Source: an uncultured bacterium (lineage in GTDB: Bacteria; Margulisbacteria; WOR-1; JAKLHX01; JBAZKV01). From it: DNA of 47,241 nt. Shown piece after piece: positions 1 through 35,648 of the stretch. Location: NCBI GenBank assembly GCA_964443545.1, contig CAYUCV010000010.1, forward strand, positions 1 to 47,241. Direction: 5' to 3'. The notes under the pieces are model-generated. The model was not told the origin of the DNA, did not search any database, and saw only the letters and a program-made list of their open reading frames with translations. Both the position numbers and the translations under genes were made by a program. The number at the start of each line of letters is the position of its first letter. Within the stretch, counting starts at the first letter, position 1.

Positions 1-395
1 CCCAGCATGAACAGATCGCTCCTAAAATCAAAATCGCTCGCGACCGCAGGCCTTCCGCTTATCGCATCCAGTGTTGTGGCGCTAAAGCCCCCCATCTGAT
101 CGTTGCCGTATCCGGCAAAGAATTTCCCGTATTTTGTAGGCATTACATAGCCGAGCATCGTGTAGTTTACATCAGAATCCATTTGCCCATACATGCTCAC
201 TATCTCTCCTGTAACAACCCCTTTTAAACCCGCCGGATTACCAAAAATACCGTAAGGGTCCGCTTTTTGTCCCGCATATGTTCTCCCAAGCGAGATGGAC
301 CTTGCTCCATAGCCGATATCCAGGACTCCGGCCGCTAACGAGCTGCCCGCGATCAGGATTATTGCACAGATTCCGGGCACAAGATATCTTTTCAT
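1..395 (-). CDS. PorV/PorQ-like outer-membrane beta-barrel protein, N-terminal 131 codons (the gene runs off the window edge)
   Basis: Hand translation of the minus strand from ATG 395..393 gives MKRYLVPGICAIILIAGSSLAAGVLDIGYGARSISLGRTYAGQKADPYGIFGNPAGLKGV... It has a signal peptide followed by the GxGARxxxxG...D...NPAGL pattern I associate with PorV/PorQ/UPF0164 barrels. The ATG overlaps the TGA of the adhesin gene (ATGA at 392-395). It is absent from the ORF track because it is truncated. Confidence 0.6.
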   Translation of the reverse strand, partial: MKRYLVPGICAIILIAGSSLAAGVLDIGYGARSISLGRTYAGQKADPYGIFGNPAGLKGVVTGEIVSMYGQMDSDVNYTMLGYVMPTKYGKFFAGYGNDQMGGFSATTLDAISGRPAVASDFDFRSDLFML

Positions 396-22315: not shown

Positions 22316-24367
22316 CTAAATTACTATCTTTCCAAAATCAGCGAACCGCAGATACAGGCCGTTCAATTCGTTCAATAGTGCCAGCCTGTTCTTCCTTATG
22401 CTCTCATCCTGATGCATAACTAACACCTTTTCAAAAAACTCCTCTACCGCGGGCGTAAGATTGGCCAGGGTCAGCAGCGCTTTTTCGTATTGCTTTATAC
22501 CCATAACCTCTCTAAAAAGGTCCTTTGTCTGGACAAATGCGGAATACAATTTCTTTTCCCCGTCCTCGACAAAGAGGCTTGTGTCCGCCTTTGCGCCTTC
22601 CGCCTTTTGCGCTATCCTGCCTATCCTGTCCGCGCACATTATTATGCCTTTGACGCGGTTGTTTGCAAGTGAACTGTTAAGTATAAAAGCTTTGCAGTAT
22701 GTCTCTGTCAGGTTCGAGGCGTTGTTTATCACCGCGTCGCAGACGTCATGCTTTATTCCTTCGCCCTCAAGCACTGCCTTAAGCCTTTGCCCGATAAAGT
22801 CGGAGAGTTTTTTCTTGAGCTCATTTTTTTCGGCTGGGTTTTCCTCCAGCGCTTTGTCAAGCAGATTGCCAATGTCAATGGACAATTCCATAGCCAGGAT
22901 GATCGAGACTATACCCTGCGCCGCTCTTCTTAATGCATACGGGTCCTCGGACCCGGTCGGGATAAGCCCTGCTGCAAAGCAGGCGCATAAAGTGTCTATC
23001 CTGTCGGCAATACCGCAAATCGCCCCGTAGATCTCTTTGGGAGTGTCATCCCCCGAAAATCTCGGCAGGTAATGCTCGTAGACCGCTCTTGCAACACGGC
23101 TGTCCTCTCCCATGACAAGACAGTATTCCCTTCCCATTATGCCGGCCAGGGACGAGAATTCGCCGACCATATGAGAAGAAAGATCGAACTTAAGAAGGCT
23201 GCAGGCCCTTTCCACAATGCTCCAGAGGTCCTTTTTGTCAAGCAGGTCGTGGCAAATATACTTTGATATCTCGCTCACTCGGCTTGTTTTGTCGAACATG
23301 CTGCCAGCCTTTTCAAGAAAAGTGATCTTTTTGGTCTTTTCTATCATGGGGTCCAGCGTGTTCTTAAGGTCTTCGTCGTAGAAGAACTTGGCGTCGCTTA
23401 GCCTGGCGTTCACCACCTGTTCGTACCCTGCCTTCACATTTCCCTTTTCCCCTCCGTCCGACACTATCAAAAAAAAGGCCGCGCCGTCAGAGGGAAAGCA
23501 TTTCTGCTGCTTTTTGACCACCGTTGCAATAACATCCTGCGGCAGGACCAGAAGGAACTGCTGCAAAAAACTGCCCGCCACAACGGCTGGATTTTCGGTA
23601 AGATTTGCCGTCTCGTTAAGAAGTCCTGTGTCCAGCGGTATCTTTGCGTTGTTCTTCTTTTCGAAGTCTTTTATCTGCTCCTTTATCAGCTCTAGCCTGT
23701 CCTGTTTTGAAAGGACCACCCCGTGCTTTGCCAGGAAAGCTTTAAATTGGCCGATATCGGCTGCCCCGGCATAAGAGATCATTTTGTTGCCGGCCAGCAG
23801 GCGGTGCCCCCTGGACCTGCCGAACGAAACAACCCCTTTAAAGGACAGTTTGACAGGCTTACTGCCAAGAACAGCCAGCATATAGTGCAGGGGGCGTATA
23901 AAAGAGTGGGCGCCGTCACCCCACTTCATCGAAACTGGAAGAGGCAAAAGCTCCAGCAGTTTGGGAACGATCTCCTTAAGAATAGCTTCCGCGGTTTTTC
24001 CTTTTCTCTTTACTACGGCAAAAACATACTCGCCCGATCCGGTGTCCTTGATCTTAAGTTTTTTTGCATCAAGCCCCTGTGCCCTTGCAAAGCCTTCGGC
24101 AGCTTTTGTAAGGCCGCCTTCTTTATCATAGGCCGCAGATCTGGGAGGTCCTTTTATCTCAAGCACTTTGTCCTGCTGCTTATCCTCCAGGCCGTGGATA
24201 AAAAGCACAAGCCTCCTGGGGGTGCCGAGTGTTTCAACTGAAGAGAACTGCAGGTCGCTTTCCCGCAGCTTTTCTTCGGCAAGGCGCTTAAGGTCCAAAA
24301 GCACCGCATCCAAAAACCTTGACGGTATTTCTTCTGTACCTATTTCCAGCAAAAAATTGTTGCTCAT
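22316..24367 (-). CDS. glyS: Glycine--tRNA ligase beta subunit
   Basis: FLLEIGTEEIPSRF N-terminus, 683 aa, C-terminal DALR-like anticodon-binding region. The ATG shares one nucleotide with the fliI stop (TGATG). Confidence 0.95.
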   Translation of the reverse strand: MSNNFLLEIGTEEIPSRFLDAVLLDLKRLAEEKLRESDLQFSSVETLGTPRRLVLFIHGLEDKQQDKVLEIKGPPRSAAYDKEGGLTKAAEGFARAQGLDAKKLKIKDTGSGEYVFAVVKRKGKTAEAILKEIVPKLLELLPLPVSMKWGDGAHSFIRPLHYMLAVLGSKPVKLSFKGVVSFGRSRGHRLLAGNKMISYAGAADIGQFKAFLAKHGVVLSKQDRLELIKEQIKDFEKKNNAKIPLDTGLLNETANLTENPAVVAGSFLQQFLLVLPQDVIATVVKKQQKCFPSDGAAFFLIVSDGGEKGNVKAGYEQVVNARLSDAKFFYDEDLKNTLDPMIEKTKKITFLEKAGSMFDKTSRVSEISKYICHDLLDKKDLWSIVERACSLLKFDLSSHMVGEFSSLAGIMGREYCLVMGEDSRVARAVYEHYLPRFSGDDTPKEIYGAICGIADRIDTLCACFAAGLIPTGSEDPYALRRAAQGIVSIILAMELSIDIGNLLDKALEENPAEKNELKKKLSDFIGQRLKAVLEGEGIKHDVCDAVINNASNLTETYCKAFILNSSLANNRVKGIIMCADRIGRIAQKAEGAKADTSLFVEDGEKKLYSAFVQTKDLFREVMGIKQYEKALLTLANLTPAVEEFFEKVLVMHQDESIRKNRLALLNELNGLYLRFADFGKIVI

Positions 24368-25695
24368 CAGTAAAAGATCCCCATCAGTTGGTCCAGCATT
24401 TCTTCAAACTCCACCTGTTCAAAGGTGCCCTGCTTGAGAAAATCGTTGACCTGGTCGATCTTGGCTATGGCATCGTCTATCTTTGGATTGCTGCCCTTTA
24501 CATAAGCGCCTATGTTAATAAGGTCTTCTGCTTCCGAGTATCTGGCCAGGACCTCGCGGAGTTTGGCGGCAGCCTCTTTATGCTCGTCTGACACCAGGTT
24601 GGTCATAAGACGGCTCACGCTGTGCAGAACATCTATGGCCGGATAATGATTTTTGGCCGCCACATCTCTTGATAGGATTATGTGCCCGTCAAGGATGCTC
24701 CTGGACTGGTCCGAAATGGGCTCGTTAAAATCATCACCTTCTACCAGTATAGTATAAAAACCGGTGATAGAGCCCACCTCCGCGGTGCCGGACCTTTCCA
24801 TAAGTTTTGGAAGAAGGGCAAAAACGGAAGGGGTATAACCTCTTGTGGTCGGAGGCTCTCCGGTGGCAAGTCCCACATCCCTCTGCGCATAGGCAAACCT
24901 TGTAACCGAATCCATCATGAGAATGACCCTCATATCCTTGTCGCGGAAGTATTCGGCTATCGCTGTTGCCACAAAGGATGCCTTTAGCCTTATAAGAGGA
25001 GGCTGGTCGGAAGTAGCCACCACCACCACCGATTTCTTCATGCCTTCTTCGCCTAGAGATTCTTCTATAAAGTCCCTTACTTCTCTTCCGCGCTCTCCGA
25101 TCAGACCTATGACGTTGACATCAGCCTCGGCGTTCCTTGCTATCATTCCCATAAGAGTGGATTTGCCGACGCCGGAACCGGCAAAGATACCCATCCGTTG
25201 TCCTCTGCCGATGGTCAGGAGCCCGTCTATAGCTCTTATGCCTACTCTTAGAATGTCCGTCACCCTGGGGCGCTTGACAGGGTCTGGAGGATCGCCGTCC
25301 AGAGCCCTTTCTTCTTCGGCAACAACTGGACCTTTATCATCTATGGGCTCTCCTAACCCGTTGAGGACCCTTCCAAGTATAGACGGCCCCACCTTTACCG
25401 ACAGAGGCCTTCCTGCGGCAAGGACCTCTGCCCCGGGATGTATCCCGGAAGTGGTGCCAAGCGGCATGAGAAGGACCCTGCCTTCTTTAAAGCCTACGAC
25501 TTCACTGTAGGTAGAATTCCCCTCGTTCCCCAGTTTTACCACGCACAGGTCCCCGATGGAGACCCCCTGCACCTGGGCTTCGATTATAAGACCCACCACC
25601 TGGATCACCTTGCCGATGACTTTGACGTTTTCAGAGCGCTCTACTGCCTTGTGGTATTTTTCAAAATCGATCAGGAGGGATTCAAAGTTACTCAC
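24367..25695 (-). CDS. fliI: Flagellar export ATPase FliI
   Basis: Walker A GSGVGKST, Walker B VILMMDSVTRFA, F1/T3SS-ATPase architecture, 442 aa, follows fliH. Confidence 0.95.
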   Translation of the reverse strand: MSNFESLLIDFEKYHKAVERSENVKVIGKVIQVVGLIIEAQVQGVSIGDLCVVKLGNEGNSTYSEVVGFKEGRVLLMPLGTTSGIHPGAEVLAAGRPLSVKVGPSILGRVLNGLGEPIDDKGPVVAEEERALDGDPPDPVKRPRVTDILRVGIRAIDGLLTIGRGQRMGIFAGSGVGKSTLMGMIARNAEADVNVIGLIGERGREVRDFIEESLGEEGMKKSVVVVATSDQPPLIRLKASFVATAIAEYFRDKDMRVILMMDSVTRFAYAQRDVGLATGEPPTTRGYTPSVFALLPKLMERSGTAEVGSITGFYTILVEGDDFNEPISDQSRSILDGHIILSRDVAAKNHYPAIDVLHSVSRLMTNLVSDEHKEAAAKLREVLARYSEAEDLINIGAYVKGSNPKIDDAIAKIDQVNDFLKQGTFEQVEFEEMLDQLMGIFY

Positions 25696-26422
25696 TGGTC
25701 TGGACCTTTTTCATCTGCTGCTCTATCAGCGAAAGCTTGGTGCTTATCCTGGCATCCACATAACCGAGATTCGTTTCTATGATGCAGCCTCCGGCCTCGA
25801 TCTGTGAATCCTCAAGAATAGAAAGGTTCTTTATCCCGTCCACAAGTCCTGCTATCTTTTCCTTGTTCTGCTTTACCTGCTCAAAGTCATTCTTGCTGAC
25901 CTTGATTATGATGTTTTCCCTGTCGCTCACCCTGTTTATCGCCTCCGCCACCATGTTCATTATCACATCATTGTTGAGGGATACTTCGCTGCGGATTACC
26001 TGCTCCGCTATCTTTAGGGAAAGCCGCAGCAGCTCGCTTTCGGCATCCTTAATTATCTTTTTTCTTTCCTTGACCGCCTGGTTCAGCGTTTCCAGGGTCT
26101 CTTTTATGTTGTCATCCACCTGCTGCTGGCCCTGCCGCCTTCCTTCTTCAAAACCCTCTTCCCTGCTCTGTTTTCTTATATCTTCGGCTTCCTGTCTTGC
26201 CTGCGTCAGGATGCCTTCGGATTCTGCCCTGGCCTGGGAAAGAACATCCTGGGCCCTTGCTTCAAGCTGTCCCTGATCCTCCTGCCCGACAAAGTCCCTG
26301 CTTTCTACGAACGGCTCTTCTTCCGCCGCAAAAGAAGCGCGGTTAGAAGAGGCCGAGGACACATCCTGCTTTAGGTCGATAGTGCCTTTATCGAATACTT
26401 TTGTTCTTTTTATCAAGGCCAT
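25688..26422 (-). CDS. fliH: Flagellar assembly protein FliH
   Basis: Charged coiled-coil N-terminal half (EAEDIRKQSREEGFEEGRRQG) and a FliH C-terminal domain (LSLKIAEQVIRSEV...GGCIIETNLGYVDARI). Located between fliG and fliI. Confidence 0.88.
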   Translation of the reverse strand: MALIKRTKVFDKGTIDLKQDVSSASSNRASFAAEEEPFVESRDFVGQEDQGQLEARAQDVLSQARAESEGILTQARQEAEDIRKQSREEGFEEGRRQGQQQVDDNIKETLETLNQAVKERKKIIKDAESELLRLSLKIAEQVIRSEVSLNNDVIMNMVAEAINRVSDRENIIIKVSKNDFEQVKQNKEKIAGLVDGIKNLSILEDSQIEAGGCIIETNLGYVDARISTKLSLIEQQMKKVQTSE

Positions 26423-26425
26423 TTT

Positions 26426-26959
26426 TCAAACGCTCATCCTTTCCATTTTTTCGGCAAGGGTCTTAAGGAGAGCCTCGTCCAGTTTTTCCGCTATGGGCGG
26501 TTTTTTGAGCGCTCTCATAAGGCTCTCCATTTCTCTCCTGCGCTCCGGCATCAGGGACAGAACCTCGGCCGAGGCCACTGCCGGCATCAGGGACAGCACA
26601 TAGGCGCAGACCGGAGTTCTCTCAGAGGACAGGGCCATTGCGAGCTTTTTTGGGTGCGAGTACAAAACCTGGTCCGGAACGCTATTGCTAGCCTGGGGCG
26701 CTTCCGCTGCTGTCCCTGCCAAGTCCTCCGGCAGGGAGGTGATCCTCTCCTCAGAAGAGCCTTGCGGCAGTGCAACAAAGCCGGCAAATTCGTCCAGCAC
26801 GGTCTTGATAGCATCAGAAGAAGGCGTCGGAAGCCTGTTGATGCCTCCGGTGATAAGATCTGCCAGGTCTTCCGGAAGAAAGGACAGGATCCTTTCTGCC
26901 AGCTCAGAACCCAGCAAAGACAGCAGGATCGTTGCTTTTTCCCTTCCGCTTAACGGCAT
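26426..26959 (-). CDS. fliG: Truncated FliG-like rotor protein (N-terminal and middle domains only, 177 aa)
   Basis: Start placed at ATG 26959 (MPLSGREKATILLSLLGSELAERIL), 7 nt after the fliF stop. YSHPKKLAMAL...LSLMPERRREMESLMRAL matches the EHPQ/ARM_M segment. The ORF ends 4 nt before fliH. Confidence 0.75.
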   Translation of the reverse strand: MPLSGREKATILLSLLGSELAERILSFLPEDLADLITGGINRLPTPSSDAIKTVLDEFAGFVALPQGSSEERITSLPEDLAGTAAEAPQASNSVPDQVLYSHPKKLAMALSSERTPVCAYVLSLMPAVASAEVLSLMPERRREMESLMRALKKPPIAEKLDEALLKTLAEKMERMSV

Positions 26960-26966
26960 GATAATT

Positions 26967-28541
26967 TCACTTTTCCTTTTCCTCGGATAGCCATTTCTTA
27001 AGCAGTTCCGCAACCCTGTCCGGTGATTGTCCGACCATGTCCTTCATCTGCTCAATGGCGCCTCCGCCTGCAGTCTGACGCCTATCCTCTCCCCTTTTTA
27101 TTTCAACAGCCTTTTTCTTTCTTCCCGCAATAAGTCTTGATAAAACGAACAGCACAAAAAGCAGGACAACGCCTCCGCCCGCCCAGGTCAGCGGCTGCCT
27201 GTACCTGCTAAAAGTTTTGATAGCGCTTAGCAACGGGTCCCTGTCCGAAGAAAAAGCCTTGGGATCTATGGTCCCCTGCGAAAACTCGGTGGCATAATGG
27301 AACGGCACCTTTCTTAGGATTATCCTGTCCCCTCTCTTCCTGTTGTAAGGAAGAGCCCCCGCTATTGTTTCAAAAGTTGTCTTTTTAAGCGCCGCGGTCA
27401 GATTGAACCTGTTGTCGACAAGAACGATAACGGTTAGCCTCTTTACCGGAGCTGCTTTTACCTGCGATGGCTTTGGAACTGCACTTATTTTGGCCGGCAG
27501 TTGCTTTGCCGCTTTAGGCTTTTTTGCGGATGGTTTGGCTGCCGGCAGGTTTTTTGCCGCAGACCCGTATTCAACATTCACCTTTATCAGTATGCTGTTG
27601 GGAGGATAGAAATTGTTGACAAGGGTCTGCACCTTGCTGGACAGTTCATTCTCATAGGCCTCTTTCTGCTTAAGAGTTTCCATCTCGGCCGGCTTCACAA
27701 AGGGGACCGCTTTAGGAACAACAGGCACAGAGGCCACTTCTTTGGTAATAACAGGAACAACCTCGGACGCCTGAGACATAGGCTGTGCCTCCTGGCTTGG
27801 CGCTTCAAAAGGAGCAACAGCTTCGGTTGTTCTGGGCAGATAGATCTCCATTGGGGTTGTCCGCATCTCGGCCGGTCTTTCTGTAACTGCGGTCTTTGGC
27901 CCGCTCAAAATATTCCCGTAGATATCCACTATAATGACATTTTCCGGACGCAGATTTTCTACGCTGCCGGCCACCAGATGCACGATGCCGCTTATCTGTT
28001 CCTGGGAAAGAACCCTTCCGGGCTTTAGTTGAAGCAGTACCGAGGCAGTTACAGGAGCTTTTGTAACCTCAAACAACTCTGTCTTGGGTATTACTATCTG
28101 GATCCTGGCATCCTCCACCGCATCCACCCTGCTTATCGTGCGCGCAAGTTCTCCCGAGATAGCCCTGACGAACTGGACCCTCCTGTCAAAATCGGTAGTG
28201 CCCAGCTTGGACTGGTCAAAGATCTCCCAGCCCACCACTCCTCCCGAAGGTATGCTTTTTTCCGCCAGACCCAGCCTTGCCTCATCGGCTTTGCCCTTGG
28301 GTACTGCGATAGATCTTCCTTTATCCCTTATCTGGTAAGGTATCTTGAGAGCTTTAAGCTGCGTCACAACATTGGCGGCATCCTTAAGATCAAGGTTGGA
28401 ATAGACCACCGTATAGCCGGCATTGGGGTCCTTGGGGGCGCAGGATCGCACGGCAAGCACTGTTATGATTATGACGAACACAAGTCCCACCGATATAAAG
28501 ATCGGCAGCTGCCTGTTGTCCCTTAGAGATGTTTCCCCCAT
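26967..28541 (-). CDS. fliF: Flagellar MS-ring protein FliF
   Basis: N-terminal TM helix, then YTVVYSNLDLKDAANVVTQLKALKIPYQI...GGVVGWEIFD...FVRAISGELARTI. A second TM helix lies near the C-terminus. 524 aa. Confidence 0.93.
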   Translation of the reverse strand: MGETSLRDNRQLPIFISVGLVFVIIITVLAVRSCAPKDPNAGYTVVYSNLDLKDAANVVTQLKALKIPYQIRDKGRSIAVPKGKADEARLGLAEKSIPSGGVVGWEIFDQSKLGTTDFDRRVQFVRAISGELARTISRVDAVEDARIQIVIPKTELFEVTKAPVTASVLLQLKPGRVLSQEQISGIVHLVAGSVENLRPENVIIVDIYGNILSGPKTAVTERPAEMRTTPMEIYLPRTTEAVAPFEAPSQEAQPMSQASEVVPVITKEVASVPVVPKAVPFVKPAEMETLKQKEAYENELSSKVQTLVNNFYPPNSILIKVNVEYGSAAKNLPAAKPSAKKPKAAKQLPAKISAVPKPSQVKAAPVKRLTVIVLVDNRFNLTAALKKTTFETIAGALPYNRKRGDRIILRKVPFHYATEFSQGTIDPKAFSSDRDPLLSAIKTFSRYRQPLTWAGGGVVLLFVLFVLSRLIAGRKKKAVEIKRGEDRRQTAGGGAIEQMKDMVGQSPDRVAELLKKWLSEEKEK

Positions 28542-28554
28542 TTACTCCTCCGTA

Positions 28555-28902
28555 TTAGATCTGCATCTGTGTTATTTCTTTAAAAGTATTGACAGCCGAG
28601 GTCACCGTGGTCACCGCCAGCTGGACCGCGATGTTCATCTTTGCGGTAGCCACCATCACCTCGGAAACATCCATATCCCCTCTGACATAACTTTCCATGG
28701 CCTGATTAGCGGCTGCTTCTGTCTTGCTCACTCCTTCCAGAGCGTCCACCGCCCTGCTCAGCATATCGTCAAAGATAGAAGAAGAGGTCTTAATTTCTTG
28801 ATTGCCGGCGGGGCCTTTGGCCGGCTCAGCGGCAGAAGAACCCTCCGTTCCCATTATCTGGGCCATCAGTTCGGGACTTATCCTTCCTACCGGTTCTGCC
28901 AT
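28555..28902 (-). CDS. fliE: Flagellar hook-basal body complex protein FliE
   Basis: FDDMLSRAVDALEGVSKTEAAANQAMESYVRGDMDVSEVMVATAKMNIAVQLAVTTVTSAVNTFKEI is a typical FliE C-terminus. 115 aa. Confidence 0.9.
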   Translation of the reverse strand: MAEPVGRISPELMAQIMGTEGSSAAEPAKGPAGNQEIKTSSSIFDDMLSRAVDALEGVSKTEAAANQAMESYVRGDMDVSEVMVATAKMNIAVQLAVTTVTSAVNTFKEITQMQI

Positions 28903-28915
28903 CTTTTTTTACTCC

Positions 28916-29353
28916 TTATTGGATCTGCAGGGCATCCTGCCCCATTTTTTTTGCCGCGTTAAAGACGGTAATGTTGGCTTCATACAATTTGCTGGAATAG
29001 ATAAGGTCCGTCATCTCCGTTGCAAGGCTTACATTGGGAAGCGACACATAACCGTTGACATCGGCGTCAGGGTGCCCCGGGTTATAGACCTTTTGCATGG
29101 GCGAAGCCAGGTCGTCAACGACCTTGACCGAAACTCCCCCGGCTTTACCCGCAAGCTTACTCTGTGCCCTTGAAAGCTGGCTTTCAAAAGAGAGCGGGGT
29201 TTCCGAATACACCGCGACTTTTCTTTTATAGACGCCGCCGTCCTGGGTCCTGGTCGCATTTATATTGGCCATGTTGCTTGCTATCAGCTCCATGTGGGTT
29301 TTTTCCGCCAGTATGCCGCTGACAGAAATGTCCATAGCGCGGTTAATGCTCAT
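28916..29353 (-). CDS. flgC: Flagellar basal-body rod protein FlgC
   Basis: MDISVSGILAEKTHMELIASNMANINATRT...PGHPDADVNGYVSLPNV. 145 aa. Confidence 0.93.
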   Translation of the reverse strand: MSINRAMDISVSGILAEKTHMELIASNMANINATRTQDGGVYKRKVAVYSETPLSFESQLSRAQSKLAGKAGGVSVKVVDDLASPMQKVYNPGHPDADVNGYVSLPNVSLATEMTDLIYSSKLYEANITVFNAAKKMGQDALQIQ

Positions 29354-29356
29354 TTA

Positions 29357-29650
29357 TCACTTTCTCCCCTGGGTGACCACTGACCTAAGCACTGCCAGTT
29401 TTGCCGTCAGCATTTTGGAAAAGGCCGAATACCTGGCATTGTTCTTTGCCATGTCAGCCATCTCTTCCTCTATGCTGACATCCCTTTTTTCCAGGCGTTT
29501 TACCGCCTTGTCCAGTGTTTCGTCAAACTTCAGGGCTTCATAGCCTGGGGTCTTCGCGTTGGAAATGTTCTGGGCAACGACTTCCTGGATCTTGGAAGAA
29601 TTGGCCATCGCCTTTTCAAGGCTGCCGAAAGTCGGGTCAAAGATCTCCAC
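29357..29650 (-). CDS. flgB: Flagellar basal-body rod protein FlgB (short, 97 aa)
   Basis: VAQNISNAKTPGYEALKFDE near the N-terminus and NNARYSAFSKMLTAKLAVLRSV at the C-terminus. Sits directly upstream of flgC. Confidence 0.85.
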   Translation of the reverse strand: MEIFDPTFGSLEKAMANSSKIQEVVAQNISNAKTPGYEALKFDETLDKAVKRLEKRDVSIEEEMADMAKNNARYSAFSKMLTAKLAVLRSVVTQGRK

Positions 29651-29661
29651 TTCTTCCTCCT

Positions 29662-30414
29662 CTATTTCAGTTTCTCTCTCAGCTTATAGATCGCCCGTGC
29701 TATCACGCGGTTCACCTTGCTGCGCGACAGCTTAAGGTCTTTTGCTATGTCCTTCTGATTAACTCCCTTTCGGTAGAACAGCTTGAGTATCTTTTTTTCC
29801 ATGCCGGGCAGCTCTTCGATCGCTGCATTCAGCCTGTTCTGCAGGTCTTTCCATTCAAGCTCGTCCACCGGAGTTGTTTCGCCTGAAACCTGTATCTCGG
29901 ACCCGTCAAGCACCTGGTCAAGGGAAACAAGGTACATAAGGGCTGAGGCCGATACTATCCTTTTTATTTTTGAGACCGCGGTCTTGAACTCTTCTTCCGT
30001 CAGTTTTTTCTTCTCGAGCATCTTGACCTCTTTGGCTGAGAGGCCTTCCAGCTCGGCGCTCTTTTTTACAACAGCGCTGTACCCTTTTTTGGCGAGGTCC
30101 CGTATCATAACCTGGATCCTATAGGGGACGGGATTATAATATTTAAGTCCGTCAAGTATCTCTCCCCGGACCCTGTAAGATGCGTATGTCTCAAATTTCA
30201 CGCCCCTCTTGGGGTCAAAATTGTCCCAGGCTTTCATAAGGCCGATCATTCCGTCGCTTACCAAGTCGTTAAAATCAATGTTGGGGGGGAGTCCTTTTCC
30301 GGCTATCATCGCAGCAATGGAATGAACCAGAGGGACATAGACCTCAAGCGCCCCGGCCGTTCTGACCACCTGAGGCTGTTCCTTTTTTTTGGGCTTGGCT
30401 ATTTGTTTTGCCAT
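29662..30414 (-). CDS. fliA: Sigma-28 type (FliA/WhiG family) RNA polymerase sigma factor
   Basis: Region 2 DLVSDGMIGLMKAWDNFDPKRGVKFETYASYRVRGEILD and a region 4 HTH (QKDIAKDLKLSRSKVNRVIARAIYKLR). Embedded among flagellar genes. Confidence 0.85.
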   Translation of the reverse strand: MAKQIAKPKKKEQPQVVRTAGALEVYVPLVHSIAAMIAGKGLPPNIDFNDLVSDGMIGLMKAWDNFDPKRGVKFETYASYRVRGEILDGLKYYNPVPYRIQVMIRDLAKKGYSAVVKKSAELEGLSAKEVKMLEKKKLTEEEFKTAVSKIKRIVSASALMYLVSLDQVLDGSEIQVSGETTPVDELEWKDLQNRLNAAIEELPGMEKKILKLFYRKGVNQKDIAKDLKLSRSKVNRVIARAIYKLREKLK

Positions 30415-30419
30415 CCTTA

Positions 30420-30740
30420 TCAGAACATCCCTTCGGCGCTGCGCGCATCGGCCATTCTTTTTGCAACAGTTTCATTTATAAGTTCGTTAAAGCCGAACGC
30501 GTCGTCTGCGGCAAGCTGTTTTACCATCTGGCTGGTAAAGATCTCCGAATAAGAAGGGGACATGTCCGTGGAGCCCCAAAGGTCCGTTCCCTGGTCCTTA
30601 AAAGCCTGGGAAAACAGGTGCTGAAGAAAAACAGAAGAGAACTCTTTTGCCGCCGTCTGCCTGTCCAAAGACGGGCTCTGCAGCATTTCTGCCGCGCGAA
30701 ATCCGGCCATGGGATCTATTGACGGGATATATGTGCTCAT
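30420..30740 (-). CDS. flgJ: Rod-binding protein (FlgJ N-terminal domain only, no muramidase domain)
   Basis: 106 aa. AAKEFSSVFLQHLFSQAFK...IFTSQMVKQLAADDAFGFNELI matches the Rod-binding family pattern. Located immediately after flgI. Confidence 0.75.
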   Translation of the reverse strand: MSTYIPSIDPMAGFRAAEMLQSPSLDRQTAAKEFSSVFLQHLFSQAFKDQGTDLWGSTDMSPSYSEIFTSQMVKQLAADDAFGFNELINETVAKRMADARSAEGMF

Positions 30741-31943
30741 TTATATGACCTCTATCTCGGCGTTAAGCGCGCCTGAAGTTTTTATGGCCTGAAGTATGGC
30801 TATAAGGTCCCTCGGGGCGGCCCCTAGGCTGTTGAGAGCCTTGATAAGGTCATTAAGGCTTGAGCCGGAAGAGACCGCCGATAATTTTTTGATGTTCTCC
30901 TTAACCCTCAGGCTCGCGGTCGAAATATCCGAGCCTCCCAAGCCTTCGGAGGCAACAGTGACATTGCCTATCTGCACCGTAAAATTGCCGTAGGATACAG
31001 CCACCGGCGCTATCCTGATATTTTCTCCTATAACAACGGTCCCGGTCCGCTCGTTGACCACGATCTTTGCCTTAACATCCGGGACCACTCTGAGATTTTC
31101 TATTGTGGAGAGGAGAGACACCACATCCGTACCGGGCTCAACTATCACCATTACAGCAGAAGCATCGGCAGACCTGGCGTCGTAGCCTTTTTTGGCTATC
31201 GTATATGCCACTCTTGAGGCAGTGGTAAAATCCGGTTCGTTCAAGAGCACCGTAAGAGTAGAAAGGGTGCCGGAACCTTTGTATTTTGTTCCCTCCGGAT
31301 ATTCGGAGGACAGGGGTTCTTCAATGCCAACGCGCACTTCTTTCTCAACTATCCCTCCGCCCGGTATCCTTGCAACTGTCGTTACCTCCCTGTTCATCGG
31401 CAAAAGACCTGCGCCTGAAGAAGCTCCCCCCAATGACACGGAACCCTGTGCTAAGGCATACACTACCCCGTCGGGGCCTTGAAGCGGAGTAAGCAGAAGG
31501 GTCCCTCCCCTAAGACTGGTTGCATCCCCCACTGAGGACACCGTCACATCTATCTTCTGTCCGGGTTTCAAAAATGGAGGAAGCGTTGCCGTGACCATGA
31601 CCGCGGCCACATTCCTGGATTTAAATTCCTTGTTCTTGGGTATGTCCGAGTAGTTATAAATTGGATTGGTGTTAGACCTTGAGATCGGACTGGGCGCCTG
31701 AAGCCCCATAGCGCTTAACAGATTGGTAAGGGCCTGTTTTGTGAACTCCGTCTGCTGGCTGTCGCCTGAATGGCGAAGCCCCGCAACAAGACCAAAACCC
31801 ATCAACTGATTATCGCGGGCTTGTTGTATACTTGCAATGTCTTTTATTCTTACCTGCGGGGATGCACCATCGGAAACGGATGATGTAAAGCCAAGCCATA
31901 CCGCTAATGCCACGGACAATAACAAAAGACCACTTCTTTTCAT
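30741..31943 (-). CDS. flgI: Flagellar P-ring protein FlgI
   Basis: Signal peptide, then VRIKDIASIQQARDNQLMGFGLVAGLRHSGDS...LRGGTLLLTPL...INERTGTVV-type motif (VVNERTGTVVIG). Confidence 0.95.
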   Translation of the reverse strand: MKRSGLLLLSVALAVWLGFTSSVSDGASPQVRIKDIASIQQARDNQLMGFGLVAGLRHSGDSQQTEFTKQALTNLLSAMGLQAPSPISRSNTNPIYNYSDIPKNKEFKSRNVAAVMVTATLPPFLKPGQKIDVTVSSVGDATSLRGGTLLLTPLQGPDGVVYALAQGSVSLGGASSGAGLLPMNREVTTVARIPGGGIVEKEVRVGIEEPLSSEYPEGTKYKGSGTLSTLTVLLNEPDFTTASRVAYTIAKKGYDARSADASAVMVIVEPGTDVVSLLSTIENLRVVPDVKAKIVVNERTGTVVIGENIRIAPVAVSYGNFTVQIGNVTVASEGLGGSDISTASLRVKENIKKLSAVSSGSSLNDLIKALNSLGAAPRDLIAILQAIKTSGALNAEIEVI

Positions 31944-31953
31944 GCCGTTCCCC

Positions 31954-32556
31954 CTAAAAGATCATGTCCAGGATCCTGGTTATTACGCCGGGAGATGAAG
32001 CCGTCCCGACGGTGCCGACCCCTTTTACCGAAATATCCGCATCCGCCACCTGGTAAGAGTAGATAGTGTTCCAGCTTGTAATATCTTTGGTCCTGATCAC
32101 GCCTTTCACCACTATGTCCTGTTTTTCTTCGTTCACAGATACTTTGTGGTGCCCCATTATCCTGAGGTTGCCCCCCGGCTCTATGTCAGAGACCTGGGCT
32201 GATACAGCCGCGATCACATTGCTTGACCTTGTTGTTGCTCCGGCACCTTTGTATTTGTTGCCCCAGGCGGCGCTCGCCGAATTATTGGGAGCAATTGTGC
32301 CTGTTATCCTCTCTATAGTATGAGAAAAGCTCGCGCTTAGGTTGTCCTGGTTCTGCGTGTCGGTGCCCGCTTTTTGTACGGCCGAAGTTGTTTCGAGTAT
32401 CAGTATCGTTATTACATCTCCAACCTTGTATATTTTTTGCGTTGAGTAAGGCGATGGGAGGTCCTGCCTGAAAATAGAATCAGCACTGCAGTCAGGCGCA
32501 AAAAAGAACAAAGAGGCGATCAGAAGCAGAAAAAATGCCGGTGTTTGAGGTTTCAT
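31954..32556 (-). CDS. flgH: Flagellar L-ring protein FlgH
   Basis: Signal peptide, then [16 protein letters not shown]...[31 protein letters not shown]. 200 aa. Confidence 0.92.
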
Positions 32557-32936
32557 CTCCCTGCTCCTTTCCCGAATCTCATGGTCTTCTTGGCCCTGTT
32601 CTTTGCATCCACCAGCACGACCGTCGGTCGAAAGGATTTTATCTCGTCCTCGCTGACTGAGGCATAAGTTATCAAAATTATTATATCACCTCTTGCCCCA
32701 AGTCTAGCCGCCGCCCCGTTAAGGCACACCACTCCGGACCTCCTTCTGCCTTTCATGACATAGGTTTCAAGACGGCTTCCGTTGTTGACATTTACTATCT
32801 GGACCTTTTCCCCCTCCGTTATGCCCGCCAGGTCCAAAAGCTCCTGGTCCACTGTGATGCTTCCTTCGTAATCCAGTCTTGCCTCGGTGACCGTGAGCCG
32901 GTGTATCTTAGCCCGCATGAGTTGTCTGAATATCAT
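32553..32936 (-). CDS. panD: Aspartate 1-decarboxylase (pyruvoyl-dependent)
   Basis: [39 protein letters not shown]...[11 protein letters not shown]...[10 protein letters not shown] aligns along its full length with E. coli PanD. The Gly-Ser self-cleavage site (G25-S26), Lys10 and Tyr23 are retained. ATGA overlaps occur at both ends. Confidence 0.93.
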
Positions 32937-33634
32937 TGTATCTGCGCCTCCGAAGGCCCTGTTATATAGGCCTCGATCACCTTGTTCGAGGTGGGATTTT
33001 TGAACCTGATCTTCTGCCCTTTATAGCCGTCCTCCAGCGCGGTGCAGGAGACGCCGGCCAAAATATCCCCTCTTACAGAAAACACCGTGACCTCTCTTCC
33101 TTTTACCACATCCGGGGTCTTTCTTGCCATCCATTCCAGAACGAGCGTTCCCTTCGGCATCAGCGTAACAGACTCCTTGCCTTCAACCTTAGCCCTGTCA
33201 AAGATGACGCCTGCCGGAAGATGCGAAATATCTTTTTCGACATAATCCGTGTTCAAGGAAGTAAAGACCTCCCCTTTTCTTATTCTATCCGAAACTGCCA
33301 GAACATTCTTCATTATTCTTATCCTCGACTGCAGATAGACCGTTTCTTTATACTTGCCCTTTTCATATATCTTTAGCGGAAGGACCGCGCTGCCCGAGAG
33401 CTTCTGGTTAGCGGGATATTCGAGTTTTACCGAAAATCCCCCGCCGGTCCTTTTCTGATAACGGTCAAGGGCGCCGGAACTCTTGAGCTCGATCTCTATC
33501 CTCGAATCCTTTAGCCTGGCATCCCTTGCTGTAATACTGTCTTTGACCTGCTGCCTTACAGAATCCTCAAACCCTGCTTCGGCCTGCCCAAGAAGAGCTG
33601 TCAACAGCAAAAGGCAGGCTGCAAATCGCCTCAC
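32933..33634 (-). CDS. flgA: Flagellar P-ring assembly chaperone FlgA
   Basis: Signal peptide, and a C-terminal SAF-type domain ([11 protein letters not shown]...[43 protein letters not shown]). Confidence 0.85.
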
Positions 33635-33637
33635 GCT

Positions 33638-34438
33638 TTAACCTTTCATCCTTTCAAGGGTAGTGAGCATTGCCTCATAACTGGAAACCGCCTTTGTCAC
33701 TGTATCAAACACTCTCTGGACCATTATCATCCTCATCATTTCCGAGATAACATCGACATTGGACTGTTCAAGGGCCCCCTGCTGCAGGTAGCCAAAGTTG
33801 TCCTGAGTGGGGTTGCCAAAAATAGGCTCCCCGGAAGAATCCGTCTGAGCGAACAGGTTTTGCCCTATGCTCTTAAGTCCGGGAGCATTTGGGAATTTCG
33901 CAAGGACAAGCTGCCCTATTTCCGTGGCTTCCGAAGAATCATTTATGTAGACCAGGACCGTTCCGTCCTGCTTAACGAGCACAGAAGTAGTCCCCTCGGG
34001 TATCGTTATCGGAGGATCCATCATTCTTCCGTTGGGGTCCACAACATTGCCTTCATTGTCTATGTGGAAGTTGCCCGCCCTTGTATAGGCCGGAGTGCCG
34101 TCGGCAAGGGTCAGCTGAAAAAATCCTTCGCCCTGTATGGCCAGGTCCATGGGCTGATTGGTGGTCTCTATTGTGCCCTGCATAAAATCCTTGCGGGTAG
34201 AGGTCACTCTTACGCCCGTTCCGTATTCCAGTGAATCGGACGAAAGGCCGTTGGCCTTTTTTACCGCTTCGGCAAGCTTGGAATCAAAGGTCTTTTCCAC
34301 GTAAAGCAGGCTTTCTTTTTCGGTCCTGCCCTTTTTAAAAGCCACGGTCTTAGCATTTGCCAGATTGTTGGAGATGTCTATCATCTCGTCCTGGAAAGTG
34401 TTGAGCCCCGTTGCGGCCACATAAAGCGGTTGGAACAT
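33638..34438 (-). CDS. flgG: Flagellar distal rod protein FlgG
   Basis: MFQPLYVAATGLNTFQDEMIDISNNLANAKTVAFKK ... LEQSNVDVISEMMRMIMVQRVFD. 266 aa. Confidence 0.93.
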   Translation of the reverse strand: MFQPLYVAATGLNTFQDEMIDISNNLANAKTVAFKKGRTEKESLLYVEKTFDSKLAEAVKKANGLSSDSLEYGTGVRVTSTRKDFMQGTIETTNQPMDLAIQGEGFFQLTLADGTPAYTRAGNFHIDNEGNVVDPNGRMMDPPITIPEGTTSVLVKQDGTVLVYINDSSEATEIGQLVLAKFPNAPGLKSIGQNLFAQTDSSGEPIFGNPTQDNFGYLQQGALEQSNVDVISEMMRMIMVQRVFDTVTKAVSSYEAMLTTLERMKG

Positions 34439-34460
34439 GATCGCTACCTCCTTTTATGAC

Positions 34461-35210
34461 TCATTGGGCGGGACGCCCCATCTCAAGGGACCTGGAAAGA
34501 GCAGCATCCCTTGTTTGTATTATCTTGGCGTCAAAACCGTAAACCCTCTGCAAAAAGATCATCTGCATCATCTCGTCCATGATGTTGACATTGGAAGCCT
34601 CAATATAACCCTGCAGCACCCTCGGATTCTCGTTCACCGAATAGACAAGGGAGCCGCTCTCCGGAACTTTGAAGACCACATTGTTCACGGATTCCAGTTT
34701 GGACGGATCCTCAAAAACCACTATTTTAATGGCATCGATCTTGGCCCCGTCGGACATAATATCGCCGTTCTGCATTATCTCTATTGACGAGCCAGGGACC
34801 ACCGCGATGGAGCCACCCTGACCCAGCACAGGATTCTTGCCGGATATCGACTTTAGCACGCCGTTCTCATCCAGGGTGAACCTGCCATCCCTGGTATACA
34901 GCTCTCCGGAAGCTCCTTCGAGAGCAAAGTATCCATCTCCCACCACCGCAAGGTCTGTTGGAGAGCCTGTACGCAGAAGCGCCCCGTGGGTCTTGTCCTG
35001 CTGGACGCTTTTTACTTCTGGGACCATTGCCTGGGTGCCTCCGGCCTTGTTCTGGGCTTTCTGCAGCATAACCGGAAAAGAATTTACCTGCACCTGGCTC
35101 TTTTTAAAGCCCGGGGTCTGGGCATTGACTATGTTATTCATCATCGCCTTGACATTCTGGTCCGTTGTATCAAGGCCTCTTCTTCCTATTTCCAAGATCC
35201 TGTCGGTCAT
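34461..35210 (-). CDS. flgF: Flagellar proximal rod protein FlgF (FlgG paralogue)
   Basis: GLDTTDQNVKAMMNNIVNAQTPGFKK ... IEASNVNIMDEMMQMIFLQRVYG. 249 aa, first gene after a 117-nt gap, with GGAGA SD. Confidence 0.8.
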   Translation of the reverse strand: MTDRILEIGRRGLDTTDQNVKAMMNNIVNAQTPGFKKSQVQVNSFPVMLQKAQNKAGGTQAMVPEVKSVQQDKTHGALLRTGSPTDLAVVGDGYFALEGASGELYTRDGRFTLDENGVLKSISGKNPVLGQGGSIAVVPGSSIEIMQNGDIMSDGAKIDAIKIVVFEDPSKLESVNNVVFKVPESGSLVYSVNENPRVLQGYIEASNVNIMDEMMQMIFLQRVYGFDAKIIQTRDAALSRSLEMGRPAQ

Positions 35211-35327: not shown

Positions 35328-35648
35328 TTATTTCCGGCTGTCTTTTCTTATCTTCTTGAACAGTTTTTCTTTTTTAGCGGCCATCCGGTCGAGCTGGTAG
35401 ACAAAGAACAGCACTTCGGCCACGAGAACATAGAGTTCGGGAGGCACCGGCATGTCGATCTGGAGTTTTGAAAGCATTGATGCGAGGCCGGCATTTTCGT
35501 GCAGCGGGATCTTGTTCTCTTCCGCTATCCTGAGTATCTCGTCGGCAACAACCCCCTTGCCCGAAGCCACTATCAGAGGGGCCGAATCCTTGTCCATCTC
35601 GTATCGGATGGCTATAGCCGTCTTTTTTTTGTTATCTTCTTCCGCCAT
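35328..35648 (-). CDS. FlhB C-terminal-domain-like protein (EscU/YscU/HrcU family, stand-alone)
   Basis: AIAIRYEMDKDSAPLIVASGKGVVADEILRIAEENKIPLHENAGLASML...PPELYVLVAEVLFFVYQL matches the post-NPTH part of FlhB. 106 aa. Confidence 0.8.
   Translation of the reverse strand: MAEEDNKKKTAIAIRYEMDKDSAPLIVASGKGVVADEILRIAEENKIPLHENAGLASMLSKLQIDMPVPPELYVLVAEVLFFVYQLDRMAAKKEKLFKKIRKDSRK

What the first reader, a model, noticed from the sequence alone, without database searches (positions are those of the whole stretch)
26426..26959. FliG is half-length: it has the FliF-binding and FliM-binding domains but no torque-generating C-terminal domain
The only ORF between fliF (stop at 26967) and fliH (start at 26422) encodes 177 aa. 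Its regions compare to full-length FliG as follows:
- The N-terminus (LSGREKATILLSLLGSELAERILSFLPEDL...) matches FliG_N.
- YSHPKKLAMALS...VLSLMPERRREMESLMRAL matches the EHPQ/ARM_M part of the middle domain.
- The protein stops in the helix that normally leads into FliG_C.

The roughly 140-aa C-terminal domain, which carries the charged helix that contacts the MotA stator, is missing. There is no spare DNA or alternate-frame remnant for it. FliF, FliH, FliI, the rod proteins and the L/P rings all look full length.

Three explanations are possible. FliG_C may be supplied as a separate polypeptide (a split rotor protein). The C-ring/stator interface may be unconventional. Or the apparatus may not rotate and instead serves export or another role.
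Basis: partly seen in the sequence, partly recalled or inferred. Interest (0 to 1): 0.7.

Follow-up and report, generated by a model that had tools for sequence, protein, structure and literature searches.

The report
Phylum-wide half-length FliG rotor protein
The flagellar rotor protein FliG in this genome, and in every Margulisbacteria/Saganbacteria relative examined, is a conserved half-length version that keeps the parts that dock onto the basal body but lacks the domain that normally receives torque, so this apparatus probably cannot turn in the usual way.

Summary
The ORF at 26426-26959 (-) encodes 177 aa with FliG_N and FliG_M but no FliG_C. It sits 7 nt after fliF and 3 nt before fliH. 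No FliG_C remnant exists in any frame of the window.

It is not an assembly error or a pseudogene:
- At least 275 protein clusters carry the same two-domain architecture; the 120 listed are 148-185 aa, and 166 aligned family members span 141-188 aa.
- All 40+ relatives' loci examined (Saganbacteria/WOR-1, Riflemargulisbacteria, Termititenax, a marine SAG) place it in the same fliF-fliG-fliH slot.

Conserved parts:
- the 4-helix FliF-binding module;
- the FliF C-terminal helix it should bind;

Lost or degraded parts:
- FliG_C is gone.
- The rigid N-to-M connector is replaced by a variable, disordered linker.

Best reading: an adaptor-only FliG that tethers a cytoplasmic ring/export platform to the MS ring and cannot receive or transmit torque. 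A published gene table for 26 Saganbacteria shows no canonical FliG, FliM, junction, cap, FliL or FlhF/G, which fits a non-rotating hook-basal body. Riflemargulisbacteria carry the same short FliG with full flagellar and chemotaxis sets, so a trans-supplied torque domain or second FliG remains open. I could not inspect whole genomes.

The parts
26426..26959 (-). Short fliG (177 aa + stop): FliG_N module, disordered linker, FliG_M (ARM_M) and the start of helix_MC; no FliG_C.
26768..26959 (-). Residues 1-64: a 4-helix FliG_N module, the predicted FliF C-terminus binding site and the most conserved part of the family (G5, K8, A9, L13, G17, L28, P29, P46 >=98%).
   Evidence: Pfam FliG_N. Foldseek match to 5tdy_B, the FliF_C:FliG_N complex, rmsd 2.3 over 70 columns. 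Conservation.
26681..26767 (-). Residues 65-93: a Pro/Glu/Ala/Ser-rich linker that replaces the C-terminal half of FliG_N and helix_NM.
   Evidence: AF2 pLDDT <50 for residues 65-91. No conservation; gaps in 45-83% of 166 family members across most of the stretch.
26429..26680 (-). Residues 94-177: FliG_M (ARM_M) plus a terminal helix (157-176) equivalent to the start of helix_MC.
   Evidence: Pfam FliG_M profile positions 1-71 of 76. Foldseek match to 4fq0_C, the FliG_M:FliM complex, rmsd 2.0 over 80 columns.
26612..26623 (-). E113-R114-T115-P116, the equivalent of the canonical EHPQ FliM-contact motif (family consensus ERPQ).
   Evidence: HMM alignment to Salmonella/Vibrio FliG. E113 100%, R 86%, P 75%, Q 77% in 166 sequences.
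26967..28541 (-). fliF (MS ring, 524 aa).
   Evidence: Pfam YscJ_FliF E 1.4e-60; TIGR00206 200.5 bits, above its cut-off.
26982..27026 (-). FliF C-terminal helix SPDRVAELLKKWLSE, the expected docking peptide for FliG_N.
   Evidence: The motif NPEkvAeLLKkWLsE is conserved in all 31 FliF C-termini aligned.
25688..26422 (-). fliH (244 aa).
   Evidence: Pfam FliH E 8e-23; NCBIfam.
24367..25695 (-). fliI export ATPase (442 aa).
28555..29650 (-). fliE (28555-28902), flgC (28916-29353) and flgB (29357-29650).
29662..30414 (-). FliA/WhiG-like sigma factor inside the cluster.
   Evidence: Pfam. TIGR02479 140.8 bits, below its cut-off of 189.6.
30420..30740 (-). 106-aa FlgJ-N-like protein (putative rod cap).
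   Evidence: TIGR02541 22 bits, E 1.2e-4, aligned to the FlgJ N-terminus. The position after flgI is conserved.
30741..32556 (-). flgI P ring (30741-31943) and flgH L ring (31954-32556).
32933..35210 (-). flgA (32933-33634), flgG (33638-34438) and flgF (34461-35210).
35328..36910 (-). FlhB C-terminal-subdomain-only protein (35328-35648) and FliK-like protein (35648-36910).
   Evidence: Pfam. TIGR00789 flhB_rel 86 bits. The pair is conserved in relatives.

Best explanation
This is the orthologous FliG of the Margulisbacteria/Saganbacteria lineage, reduced to an adaptor.

**Proposed mechanism**
- The N-terminal 4-helix module clamps the conserved C-terminal helix of FliF.
- A flexible 15-45 residue linker follows.
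- The ARM_M domain presents the conserved E-R-P-Q surface to a FliM/FliN-type cytoplasmic ring, which in flagella also docks FliH-FliI for export.
- The protein has no FliG_C, so it has no charged torque helix and no ARM_C. Its N and M domains are joined only by a disordered tether. It can therefore neither contact MotA-type stators nor pass torque to the MS ring.
- The apparatus it belongs to (MS ring, rod, P/L rings, export ATPase, FliK/FlhB-type switch) is therefore most likely a non-rotating hook-basal-body type III export or envelope-spanning structure in most of the phylum.

**Shown here:** domain content, absence of FliG_C in any frame, phylum-wide conservation and synteny, conservation of the FliF C-terminal helix and of the EHPQ-equivalent, and linker disorder and variability.

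**Taken from a paper:** gene content of 26 Saganbacteria genomes.

**Inferred:** the binding partners, the inability to transmit torque, and non-rotation. What this particular genome encodes elsewhere is unknown.
For: **Architecture**
- FliG_N and FliG_M only.
- The fold matches FliG_N:FliF_C and FliG_M:FliM crystal structures.
- No FliG_C in six frames of the window or of 43 loci.

**Purifying selection on the short form**
- 22 homologues at 35-99% identity; 21 are 149-185 aa and one is a 103-aa partial entry.
- At least 275 clusters; the best 120 are all 148-185 aa with only the two Pfam domains.
- In an exhaustive HMMER scan of 1.84 billion representatives, ~57 short representatives score 230 down to 75 bits before any full-length FliG appears, at <=74 bits.

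**Orthology by position**
- Invariant order flgB-flgC-fliE-fliF-shortfliG-fliH-fliI in 31 GTDB species plus metagenome, Riflemargulis and Termititenax loci.

**Partner surfaces kept**
- FliF C-terminal helix conserved.
- E113 100% and the ERPQ consensus.

**Mechanical argument**
- Linker pLDDT <50; length and sequence are unconserved.

**Gene content (PMC6349859 Suppl. Data 2 and 4)**
- In 26 Saganbacteria genomes K02410 FliG, FliM, FlgK, FliD, FliL, FlhF, FlhG, FliW, FlgM, FlgN, CheC and CheD are all N/A; FlgL is N/A apart from one 'check_length' call and CheB apart from two 'reliable' calls.
- FlhA/B, FliOPQR, FliH/I/J, FliF, rod, rings, FlgE and FliN are present.
- A survey of 113,285 flagellins lists Ca. 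Margulisbacteria among the rare phyla but not WOR-1/Saganbacteria in that list (PMC7018530).

**Domain roles**
- FliG_N binds the MS ring, FliG_M binds FliM, and FliG_C contacts MotA (PMC4030992).
Against: - Riflemargulisbacteria carry the same short FliG in the same cluster (P0154). They also have FliM, FliN, FliL, FlgK/L, FliD, FlhF/G, FliW and CheC/D/R/B/Y in the published table. The authors predict motility by polar flagella.
- In two such loci a CheY-like regulator follows fliJ. This suggests a working, switchable motor that includes the short FliG, or a second FliG.
- The KO table gives false negatives. It lists FliK, FlgJ, FlgF and FliG as N/A in Saganbacteria, although divergent versions are in the cluster. 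FliM or the late genes may therefore simply be divergent.
- The conserved EHPQ-like motif implies a FliM-like partner that the table does not find.
- A FliA-like sigma factor and a FliK/FlhB_C pair are retained. These are usually linked to late-gene expression and substrate switching.
- MotA/MotB were not in the table.
- I could not examine any whole genome, including the one this window comes from. The window's clade (with L005 and L006) branches outside the Saganbacteria crown.
Confidence: 0.45

Rival explanations
1. Torque domain supplied in trans. Either a separate FliG_C polypeptide docks non-covalently on ARM_M (a split rotor protein), or a second full-length FliG encoded elsewhere (as with spirochaete FliG1/FliG2) shares the ring. 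In this reading the flagellum rotates normally, at least in lineages with full gene sets.
For: - Riflemargulisbacteria have the short FliG plus complete switch, filament, FliL and chemotaxis genes.
- K02410 is scored 'reliable' in three of their genomes and 'check_length' in two, although three of the GW genome records (GenBank accessions OGH98391.1, OGI01048.1, OGI09577.1) carry an identical 181-aa short protein.
- A CheY-like gene follows fliJ in L036 and L041.
- In canonical C rings ARM_C stacks on ARM_M of a neighbouring subunit (my own knowledge of the domain-swap model), so a non-covalent split is structurally conceivable.
- The cluster also carries a C-subdomain-only FlhB paralogue.
Against: - No FliG_C in any frame within the window or within +-10 kb of the cluster in 43 loci.
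- K02410 is N/A in all 26 Saganbacteria, including a curated complete genome, which argues against a second full-length FliG there.
- Searches seeded with short FliGs returned no full-length paralogue, though sensitivity was low.
- Torque taken up by a domain docked on ARM_M would still have to pass through the disordered N-M linker.
- A HEAT-repeat protein next to the cluster is not FliG_C-like (hhalign probability 6%).
Confidence: 0.3
2. Unconventional rotor-stator interface. The motor rotates, but stators engage another component (FliM/FliN, an extended FliH, FliF or a lineage-specific protein) instead of FliG_C.
For: - The rod plus P/L-ring bushing, the hook (published table), the FliK-like protein and the FliA-like sigma are all retained under selection.
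- FliH is unusually long (334-386 aa) in Riflemargulis-like loci and Termititenax.
Against: - To my knowledge no flagellar motor without FliG_C-MotA contacts has been described.
- No candidate protein was identified here.
- The extended FliH regions have no recognisable domain.
- The floppy FliG linker argues against torque transfer through the C ring.
Confidence: 0.08
3. Artefact or decay: a misassembly, a recent truncation (pseudogene), or a non-orthologous FliG-like paralogue of no functional importance.
For: Half-length genes are often truncations. The window's own motif (ERTP) deviates from the family consensus (ERPQ).
Against: - The same length class and architecture occur in at least 275 clusters from independent assemblies (NCBI, JGI, ENA, Logan). 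Identity falls to ~32% while N-domain residues stay >=98% conserved.
- Tight translational coupling to fliF and fliH.
- Always in the ancestral fliG slot.
Confidence: 0.02

Closest known systems
Canonical flagellar switch/rotor protein FliG (TIGR00207 / K02410; e.g. Salmonella FliG, 331 aa; Aquifex aeolicus 3HJL)
   Same: - Same gene slot between fliF and fliH.
- Homologous FliG_N (FliF_C-binding) and FliG_M (ARM_M with an EHPQ-type motif).
- The fold matches 5TDY and 4FQ0.
   Different: - Lacks the whole FliG_C (ARM_C plus the C-terminal helical bundle with the charged torque helix, my own knowledge).
- Lacks the second half of FliG_N and helix_NM, which are replaced by a disordered variable linker.
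- Has ERPQ/ERTP instead of EHPQ.
- Scores 29 bits against a 226.7-bit cut-off.
Spirochaete FliG1/FliG2 paralogue pair (my own knowledge)
   Same: One FliG is encoded in the flgB-fliE-fliF-fliG-fliH-fliI operon and a second one elsewhere. This is a precedent for two FliGs per genome. Some Margulisbacteria share spirochaete- and firmicute-type accessories such as FlgV (PMC11607428).
   Different: Both spirochaete paralogues are full length. No second FliG has been shown in Margulisbacteria.
Buchnera aphidicola filament-less flagellar basal bodies (my own knowledge)
   Same: A flagellar export apparatus, rod, rings and hook are kept without flagellin or motility genes. They are thought to act as protein exporters. 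This is the closest functional analogue if the non-rotating reading is right.
   Different: As far as I know Buchnera keeps a full-length FliG, and it is a reduced endosymbiont. Here the change is a specific domain loss in FliG that is conserved across a free-living phylum.
Injectisome sorting-platform adaptors (SctK/SctQ/SctL docking on SctD)
   Same: A cytoplasmic adaptor that tethers a FliM/FliN-like pod or ring and the FliH/FliI-like ATPase complex to the inner-membrane ring, without rotation. This is what the short FliG would work like.
   Different: There is no sequence or fold relationship to SctK. This system keeps the flagellar rod and L/P rings, and has no secretin or needle genes in the cluster.
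C-terminally truncated FliG mutants of E. coli/Salmonella
   Same: The FliG N-terminal and middle regions suffice for assembly functions. The C-terminal domain is specifically needed for torque.
   Different: Those are laboratory mutants. Here the truncation is the natural, conserved state of a lineage.

Membership tests
FliG (flagellar motor switch/rotor protein; TIGR00207, K02410) | N-terminal domain homologous to FliG_N that binds the FliF C-terminus | tested here: met
   Homology and fold are met, but only for a reduced ~62-residue module: Pfam FliG_N 42.5 bits and 5tdy_B rmsd 2.3. The FliF C-terminal helix is conserved. Physical binding was not tested.
FliG (flagellar motor switch/rotor protein; TIGR00207, K02410) | Middle domain (ARM_M) with the EHPQR FliM-binding motif | tested here: inconclusive
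   The FliG_M domain is present (43 bits; 4fq0_C rmsd 2.0). The motif is ERPQ in the family and ERTP in the window. E is invariant, H is replaced by R, and the distal R is not conserved.
FliG (flagellar motor switch/rotor protein; TIGR00207, K02410) | C-terminal domain (PF01706) with the charged torque helix that contacts MotA | tested here: not met
   No Pfam hit. The alignment to the fliG model stops at position 182 of 338. A six-frame FliG_C HMM scan was negative.
FliG (flagellar motor switch/rotor protein; TIGR00207, K02410) | Whole-protein score above the curated equivalog cut-off | tested here: not met
   TIGR00207 29.3 bits against 226.7; NF004260 29.2 bits against 550. K02410 is N/A in 26 Saganbacteria.
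FliG (flagellar motor switch/rotor protein; TIGR00207, K02410) | Encoded between fliF and fliH in the flgB-fliE-fliF-fliG-fliH-fliI operon (positional orthology) | tested here: met
   Window and more than 40 related loci.
MgtE N-terminal domain family (PF03448) | Score above the Pfam gathering threshold, together with MgtE CBS and transmembrane domains | tested here: not met
   17 bits against 25.9 and no other MgtE domains. The PDB MgtE match has E 0.13.
Complete motile flagellum (system level) | Stator (MotA/MotB), FliM/FliN switch, hook-filament junction, cap and flagellin encoded in the same genome | not testable with these tools
   None of these lie in the 47-kb window or within +-10 kb of the cluster in relatives. 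Whole genomes could not be scanned. The published KO table gives a mixed picture across classes.

The most novel reading that the evidence does not exclude
Most Margulisbacteria/Saganbacteria build a flagellum-derived machine that does not rotate. It would have an MS ring, a full rod, P/L rings, a hook and a type III export gate. Its FliG has been cut down to a flexible adaptor for the export platform.

This would be a free-living, phylum-wide intermediate between a motility organelle and a dedicated secretion or envelope-spanning device.

Its sister possibility is that motile Riflemargulisbacteria run a split rotor whose torque domain is a separate polypeptide.
Probability: 0.35. Interest if true: 0.85.

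Novelty: new variant of a known kind. Interest (0 to 1): 0.65.

Why it matters
- FliG_C is the one rotor element that every model of flagellar torque generation and switching depends on. A large lineage sister to Cyanobacteria in which the positional FliG orthologue has lost it under purifying selection is a natural experiment.
- One outcome is that the flagellar basal body can be kept for a non-motility purpose, namely export or envelope spanning. This bears on how injectisomes arose from flagella.
- The other outcome is that the rotor can be assembled from separate polypeptides or can use another stator interface.
- There is also a practical annotation consequence. KO and TIGRFAM-based pipelines score FliG as absent (Saganbacteria) or 'check_length' in these genomes. 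Motility predictions such as 'motile by polar flagella' for Margulisbacteria therefore rest on an unexamined rotor.

Tried and rejected
1. **Misassembly, deletion or pseudogene.** Rejected by conservation and synteny.
2. **FliG_C hidden in another frame or in a neighbouring gene.** Rejected:
   - the six-frame HMM scan was negative;
   - Pfam on all sizeable ORFs of the window's coding (-) strand found nothing;
   - long FliH variants show only the FliH domain;
   - the HEAT-repeat protein beside the Riflemargulis clusters is not FliG_C-like (hhalign probability 6%).
3. **An apparent FliF-FliG fusion ORF in L028.** This turned out to be a scaffold gap (a run of X).
4. **Finding a second flagellar locus or a full-length paralogue.** None of these attempts succeeded:
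   - the third homologue search, with the Riflemargulis short FliG, gave only 4 short hits;
   - look-ups of the window-edge proteins found nothing on record;
5. **Literature.** No held paper describes a FliG that lacks FliG_C in these phyla. One search was wasted on 'flig' matching 'flight'. Utami et al. 2019 (Termititenax genomes) is not held.
6. **MgtE_N relationship.** Below threshold.
Full report
**What is in the window.**
- The ORF at 26426-26959 on the minus strand starts at ATG and ends at TGA.
- It begins 7 nt after the fliF stop, and the fliH ATG follows 3 nt after its stop. The three genes are therefore tightly coupled, with no unassigned DNA.
- Pfam finds FliG_N (residues 3-61, 42.5 bits) and FliG_M (residues 103-174, covering positions 1-71 of the 76-position model, 43 bits), both above their cut-offs. 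It finds nothing for FliG_C.
- NCBI's equivalog model for FliG aligns only to model positions 9-182 of 338 and scores 29 bits against a cut-off of 227.
- I built a FliG_C HMM from 54 full-length FliGs and ran it with all filters off on six-frame translations of the window and 43 related loci. Nothing scored above 10 bits. The same HMM recovered 64 FliG sequences as a positive control.

**Surroundings.** Every gene in this stretch is on the minus strand. In transcription order they are:
1. a FliK-like protein;
2. a protein that is only the C-terminal subdomain of FlhB;
3. FlgF, FlgG and FlgA;
4. aspartate decarboxylase (PanD), which is not flagellar;
5. FlgH and FlgI;
6. a 106-aa FlgJ-N-like protein;
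7. a FliA/WhiG-like sigma factor;
8. FlgB, FlgC, FliE and FliF;
9. the short FliG, then FliH and FliI;
10. glyS, followed by other housekeeping genes.

Nowhere in the 47 kb are there genes for FliM, FliN, MotA/B, FlhA, FliPQR, a hook protein or flagellin.

**It is a conserved family, not an accident.**
- A single-sequence search found 22 homologues at 35-99% identity. Of these, 21 are 149-185 aa with the two Pfam domains, and one is a 103-aa partial entry.
- A profile search found at least 275 clusters, and the best 120 are all 148-185 aa with the same two domains.
- An exhaustive HMMER scan of 1.84 billion representatives shows a clean break. About 57 short representatives score from 230 down to 75 bits. 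Ordinary ~320-350-aa FliGs begin only at 74 bits and below.
- A scan of one genome per GTDB species returned 31 loci, including a curated complete 1.67-Mb genome. All that are assigned to a phylum are named Margulisiibacteriota, Saganbacteria or WOR-1; several carry no phylum name.
- Named members also include Riflemargulisbacteria (GWD2_39_127 and relatives), Candidatus Termititenax persephonae and a marine single-cell genome.
- In every locus long enough to show it, the order is FlgF-FlgG-FlgA-FlgH-FlgI-FlgJlike-sigma-FlgB-FlgC-FliE-FliF-shortFliG-FliH-FliI(-FliJ), flanked by housekeeping genes.
- A more distant sister group (L040, L042, L043) has the same cluster ending at a 184-249-aa short FliG.
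- This is therefore the positional orthologue of fliG, and the half-length state is ancestral to the lineage.

**Anatomy.**
- AlphaFold2 with the family alignment gives mean pLDDT 73:
  - four helices at residues 5-62;
  - a segment at 65-91 with pLDDT below 50;
  - helices at 94-150;
  - a final helix at 157-176.
- Foldseek matches the first module to FliG_N in the FliF_C:FliG_N co-crystal (5TDY, rmsd 2.3 Å over 70 columns). It matches the second to FliG_M in the FliG:FliM complex (4FQ0, rmsd 2.0 Å over 80 columns).
- In an alignment of 166 family members:
  - the N module is the most conserved part (G5, K8, A9, L13, G17, L28, P29, P46 at 98% or more);
  - the segment equivalent to window residues 66-99 has no conservation, and across most of it 45-83% of members carry gaps;
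  - the best-conserved element of the M domain is L..E-R-P-Q..A..LS.LP.
- The HMM alignment to Salmonella and Vibrio FliG places that element exactly on the canonical EHPQ FliM-contact motif. E113 is invariant. The window itself reads E-R-T-P.
- The C-terminal peptide of FliF, NPEkvAeLLKkWLsE, is conserved in all 31 FliFs aligned. This fits a retained FliF-FliG_N clamp.
- Compared with canonical FliG, two things are missing: the entire FliG_C, and the second half of FliG_N with the rigid helix that leads into ARM_M.

**How it most likely works.**
- In established models FliG_N binds the MS ring, FliG_M binds FliM and FliG_C contacts MotA (PMC4030992).
- A protein with only the first two modules, joined by a floppy tether, can anchor a FliM/FliN-type ring to FliF. 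In flagella that ring also docks FliH-FliI for export (my own knowledge).
- Such a protein cannot receive torque. A disordered, length-variable linker is also a poor shaft for passing torque to the MS ring.
- I therefore read it as an adaptor-only FliG.

**What the rest of the genomes hold.**
- I could not scan whole genomes, but Supplementary Data 2 and 4 of Matheus Carnevali et al. 2019 (PMC6349859) tabulate KEGG HMM hits.
- In 26 Saganbacteria genomes:
  - present in most: FlhA, FlhB, FliO/P/Q/R, FliH/I/J, FliF, FliE, FlgB/C/G, FlgH/I/A, FlgE, FliN, FliA and the FlhB-like K04061;
  - N/A in all: K02410 FliG, FliM, FlgK, FliD, FlgM, FlgN, FliL, FlhF, FlhG and FliW; FlgL is N/A apart from one 'check_length' call;
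  - CheC and CheD are N/A in all, and CheB is N/A in all but two genomes.
- This is the pattern of a hook-basal body without switch, junction, cap or chemotaxis, and it fits a non-rotating apparatus.
- Three caveats apply:
  - The same table calls FliK, FlgJ, FlgF and FliG N/A although divergent versions sit in the cluster, so other absences may be false negatives.
  - MotA/B were not tabulated.
  - Flagellin is N/A everywhere, even in Melainabacteria.
- In the same table the five Riflemargulisbacteria genomes have essentially the full flagellar and chemotaxis set. [quoted passage not shown]
- Yet these organisms carry the same short FliG in the same cluster (P0154), followed in two loci by a CheY-like regulator.
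- K02410 is 'reliable' in three and 'check_length' in two of those genomes, although three of the GW genome records share an identical 181-aa protein. That hints at, but does not show, a second hit.
- So in at least one class either a torque domain is supplied in trans, or a second FliG exists, or the motility prediction is wrong.
- On a FliI tree the window's clade (with L005 and L006) branches between the Riflemargulis locus and the Saganbacteria crown. Its gene content cannot be inferred from either group.

**Comparison with what is known.**
- By homology and position it is a FliG. It fails the defining C-terminal domain and the curated whole-protein thresholds, so it should be filed as a truncated variant rather than an equivalog.
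- Functionally it would resemble an injectisome sorting-platform adaptor. At system level it would resemble the filament-less basal bodies of Buchnera.
- The spirochaete FliG1/FliG2 pair is a precedent for a second FliG encoded elsewhere.
- I found no held paper that describes FliG without FliG_C in these or other phyla. The Termititenax genome paper was not available.

**Verdict.**
- The finding is real, conserved and apparently undescribed.
- The adaptor-only mechanism is well supported at the level of the protein.
- The system-level consequence (no rotation, a split rotor, or an unconventional interface) is unresolved. It is directly testable with whole-genome profile searches and cryo-ET.
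- Novelty: a new variant of a known kind. Interest: 0.65.

Noticed in passing
window 32553-32936 (-): An aspartate 1-decarboxylase gene (panD) sits inside the flagellar cluster between flgA and flgH. The same insertion is present in L005, L006, L021, L035, L036 and L041, but not in the Saganbacteria crown or in Termititenax.
   Followed up: partly
window 35328-36910 (-): A FliK-like gene is immediately followed (1-nt overlap) by a 106-aa protein that is only the post-cleavage C-terminal subdomain of FlhB (TIGR00789 flhB_rel). It starts just after where NPTH would be. The pair is conserved in at least 14 relatives. The published table shows a full-length FlhB as well, so this is an extra paralogue.
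   Followed up: partly
window 24367 (fliI/glyS junction): In the window's clade (window, L005, L006) fliJ is missing after fliI and glyS starts at the fliI stop. Most other relatives examined have fliJ there, followed in most by recG.
   Followed up: partly
window 26543-26599 (-), FliG residues 121-138: The hexapeptide VLSLMP occurs twice, 12 residues apart, in the two ARM_M helices. The DNA string CTGTCCCTGATGCCGG is identical in both copies. The window's EHPQ-equivalent is ERTP, whereas the family consensus is ERPQ.
   Followed up: no
window 392-3835 (-) and 41862-44894 (-): Two very large proteins that look like surface proteins. One (1147 aa) has three fibronectin-III domains and a weak Por_Secre_tail match. 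The other (1010 aa) has NHL repeats and a FlgD-Ig-like C-terminal domain. Neither is a flagellar component.
   Followed up: no
L036 13631-14536 and L041 13741-14645: In Riflemargulis-type loci fliJ is followed by a single-domain CheY-like response regulator and a 174-180-aa HEAT-repeat protein. The HEAT protein shows no similarity to FliG_C (hhalign probability 6%).
   Followed up: partly
L040, L042, L043: A more distant lineage has the same cluster order, but it ends at a 184-249-aa short FliG with no fliH/I/J adjacent and an unusually long FliE (204-244 aa). One of these MAG records is labelled 'Thermoproteota archaeon', probably a binning or label error.
   Followed up: partly
PMC6349859 Supplementary Data 2 versus loci L005-L035: The published KEGG-HMM table scores FliG, FliK, FlgJ and FlgF as absent in Saganbacteria, although divergent versions are encoded in the conserved cluster. 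Absences in that table are therefore not all real.
   Followed up: yes
one search hit list (e.g. P0179, P0187, P0188, P0195, P0220, P0237, P0264): Several FliG-like representatives of ~250-275 aa from unknown organisms hit the FliG_C HMM only weakly (16-21 bits). They may be another shortened FliG class or simply contig-end fragments.
   Followed up: no
L036 10521-11567, L038 10513-11544, L039 1465-2469, L041 10621-11781: FliH is 334-386 aa in Riflemargulis-like loci and Termititenax, against 218-272 aa in the Saganbacteria-type loci and 244 aa in the window. In the three scanned (L036, L038, L041) there are ~135-155 extra N-terminal and ~80-115 extra C-terminal residues with no recognisable domain.
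   Followed up: partly
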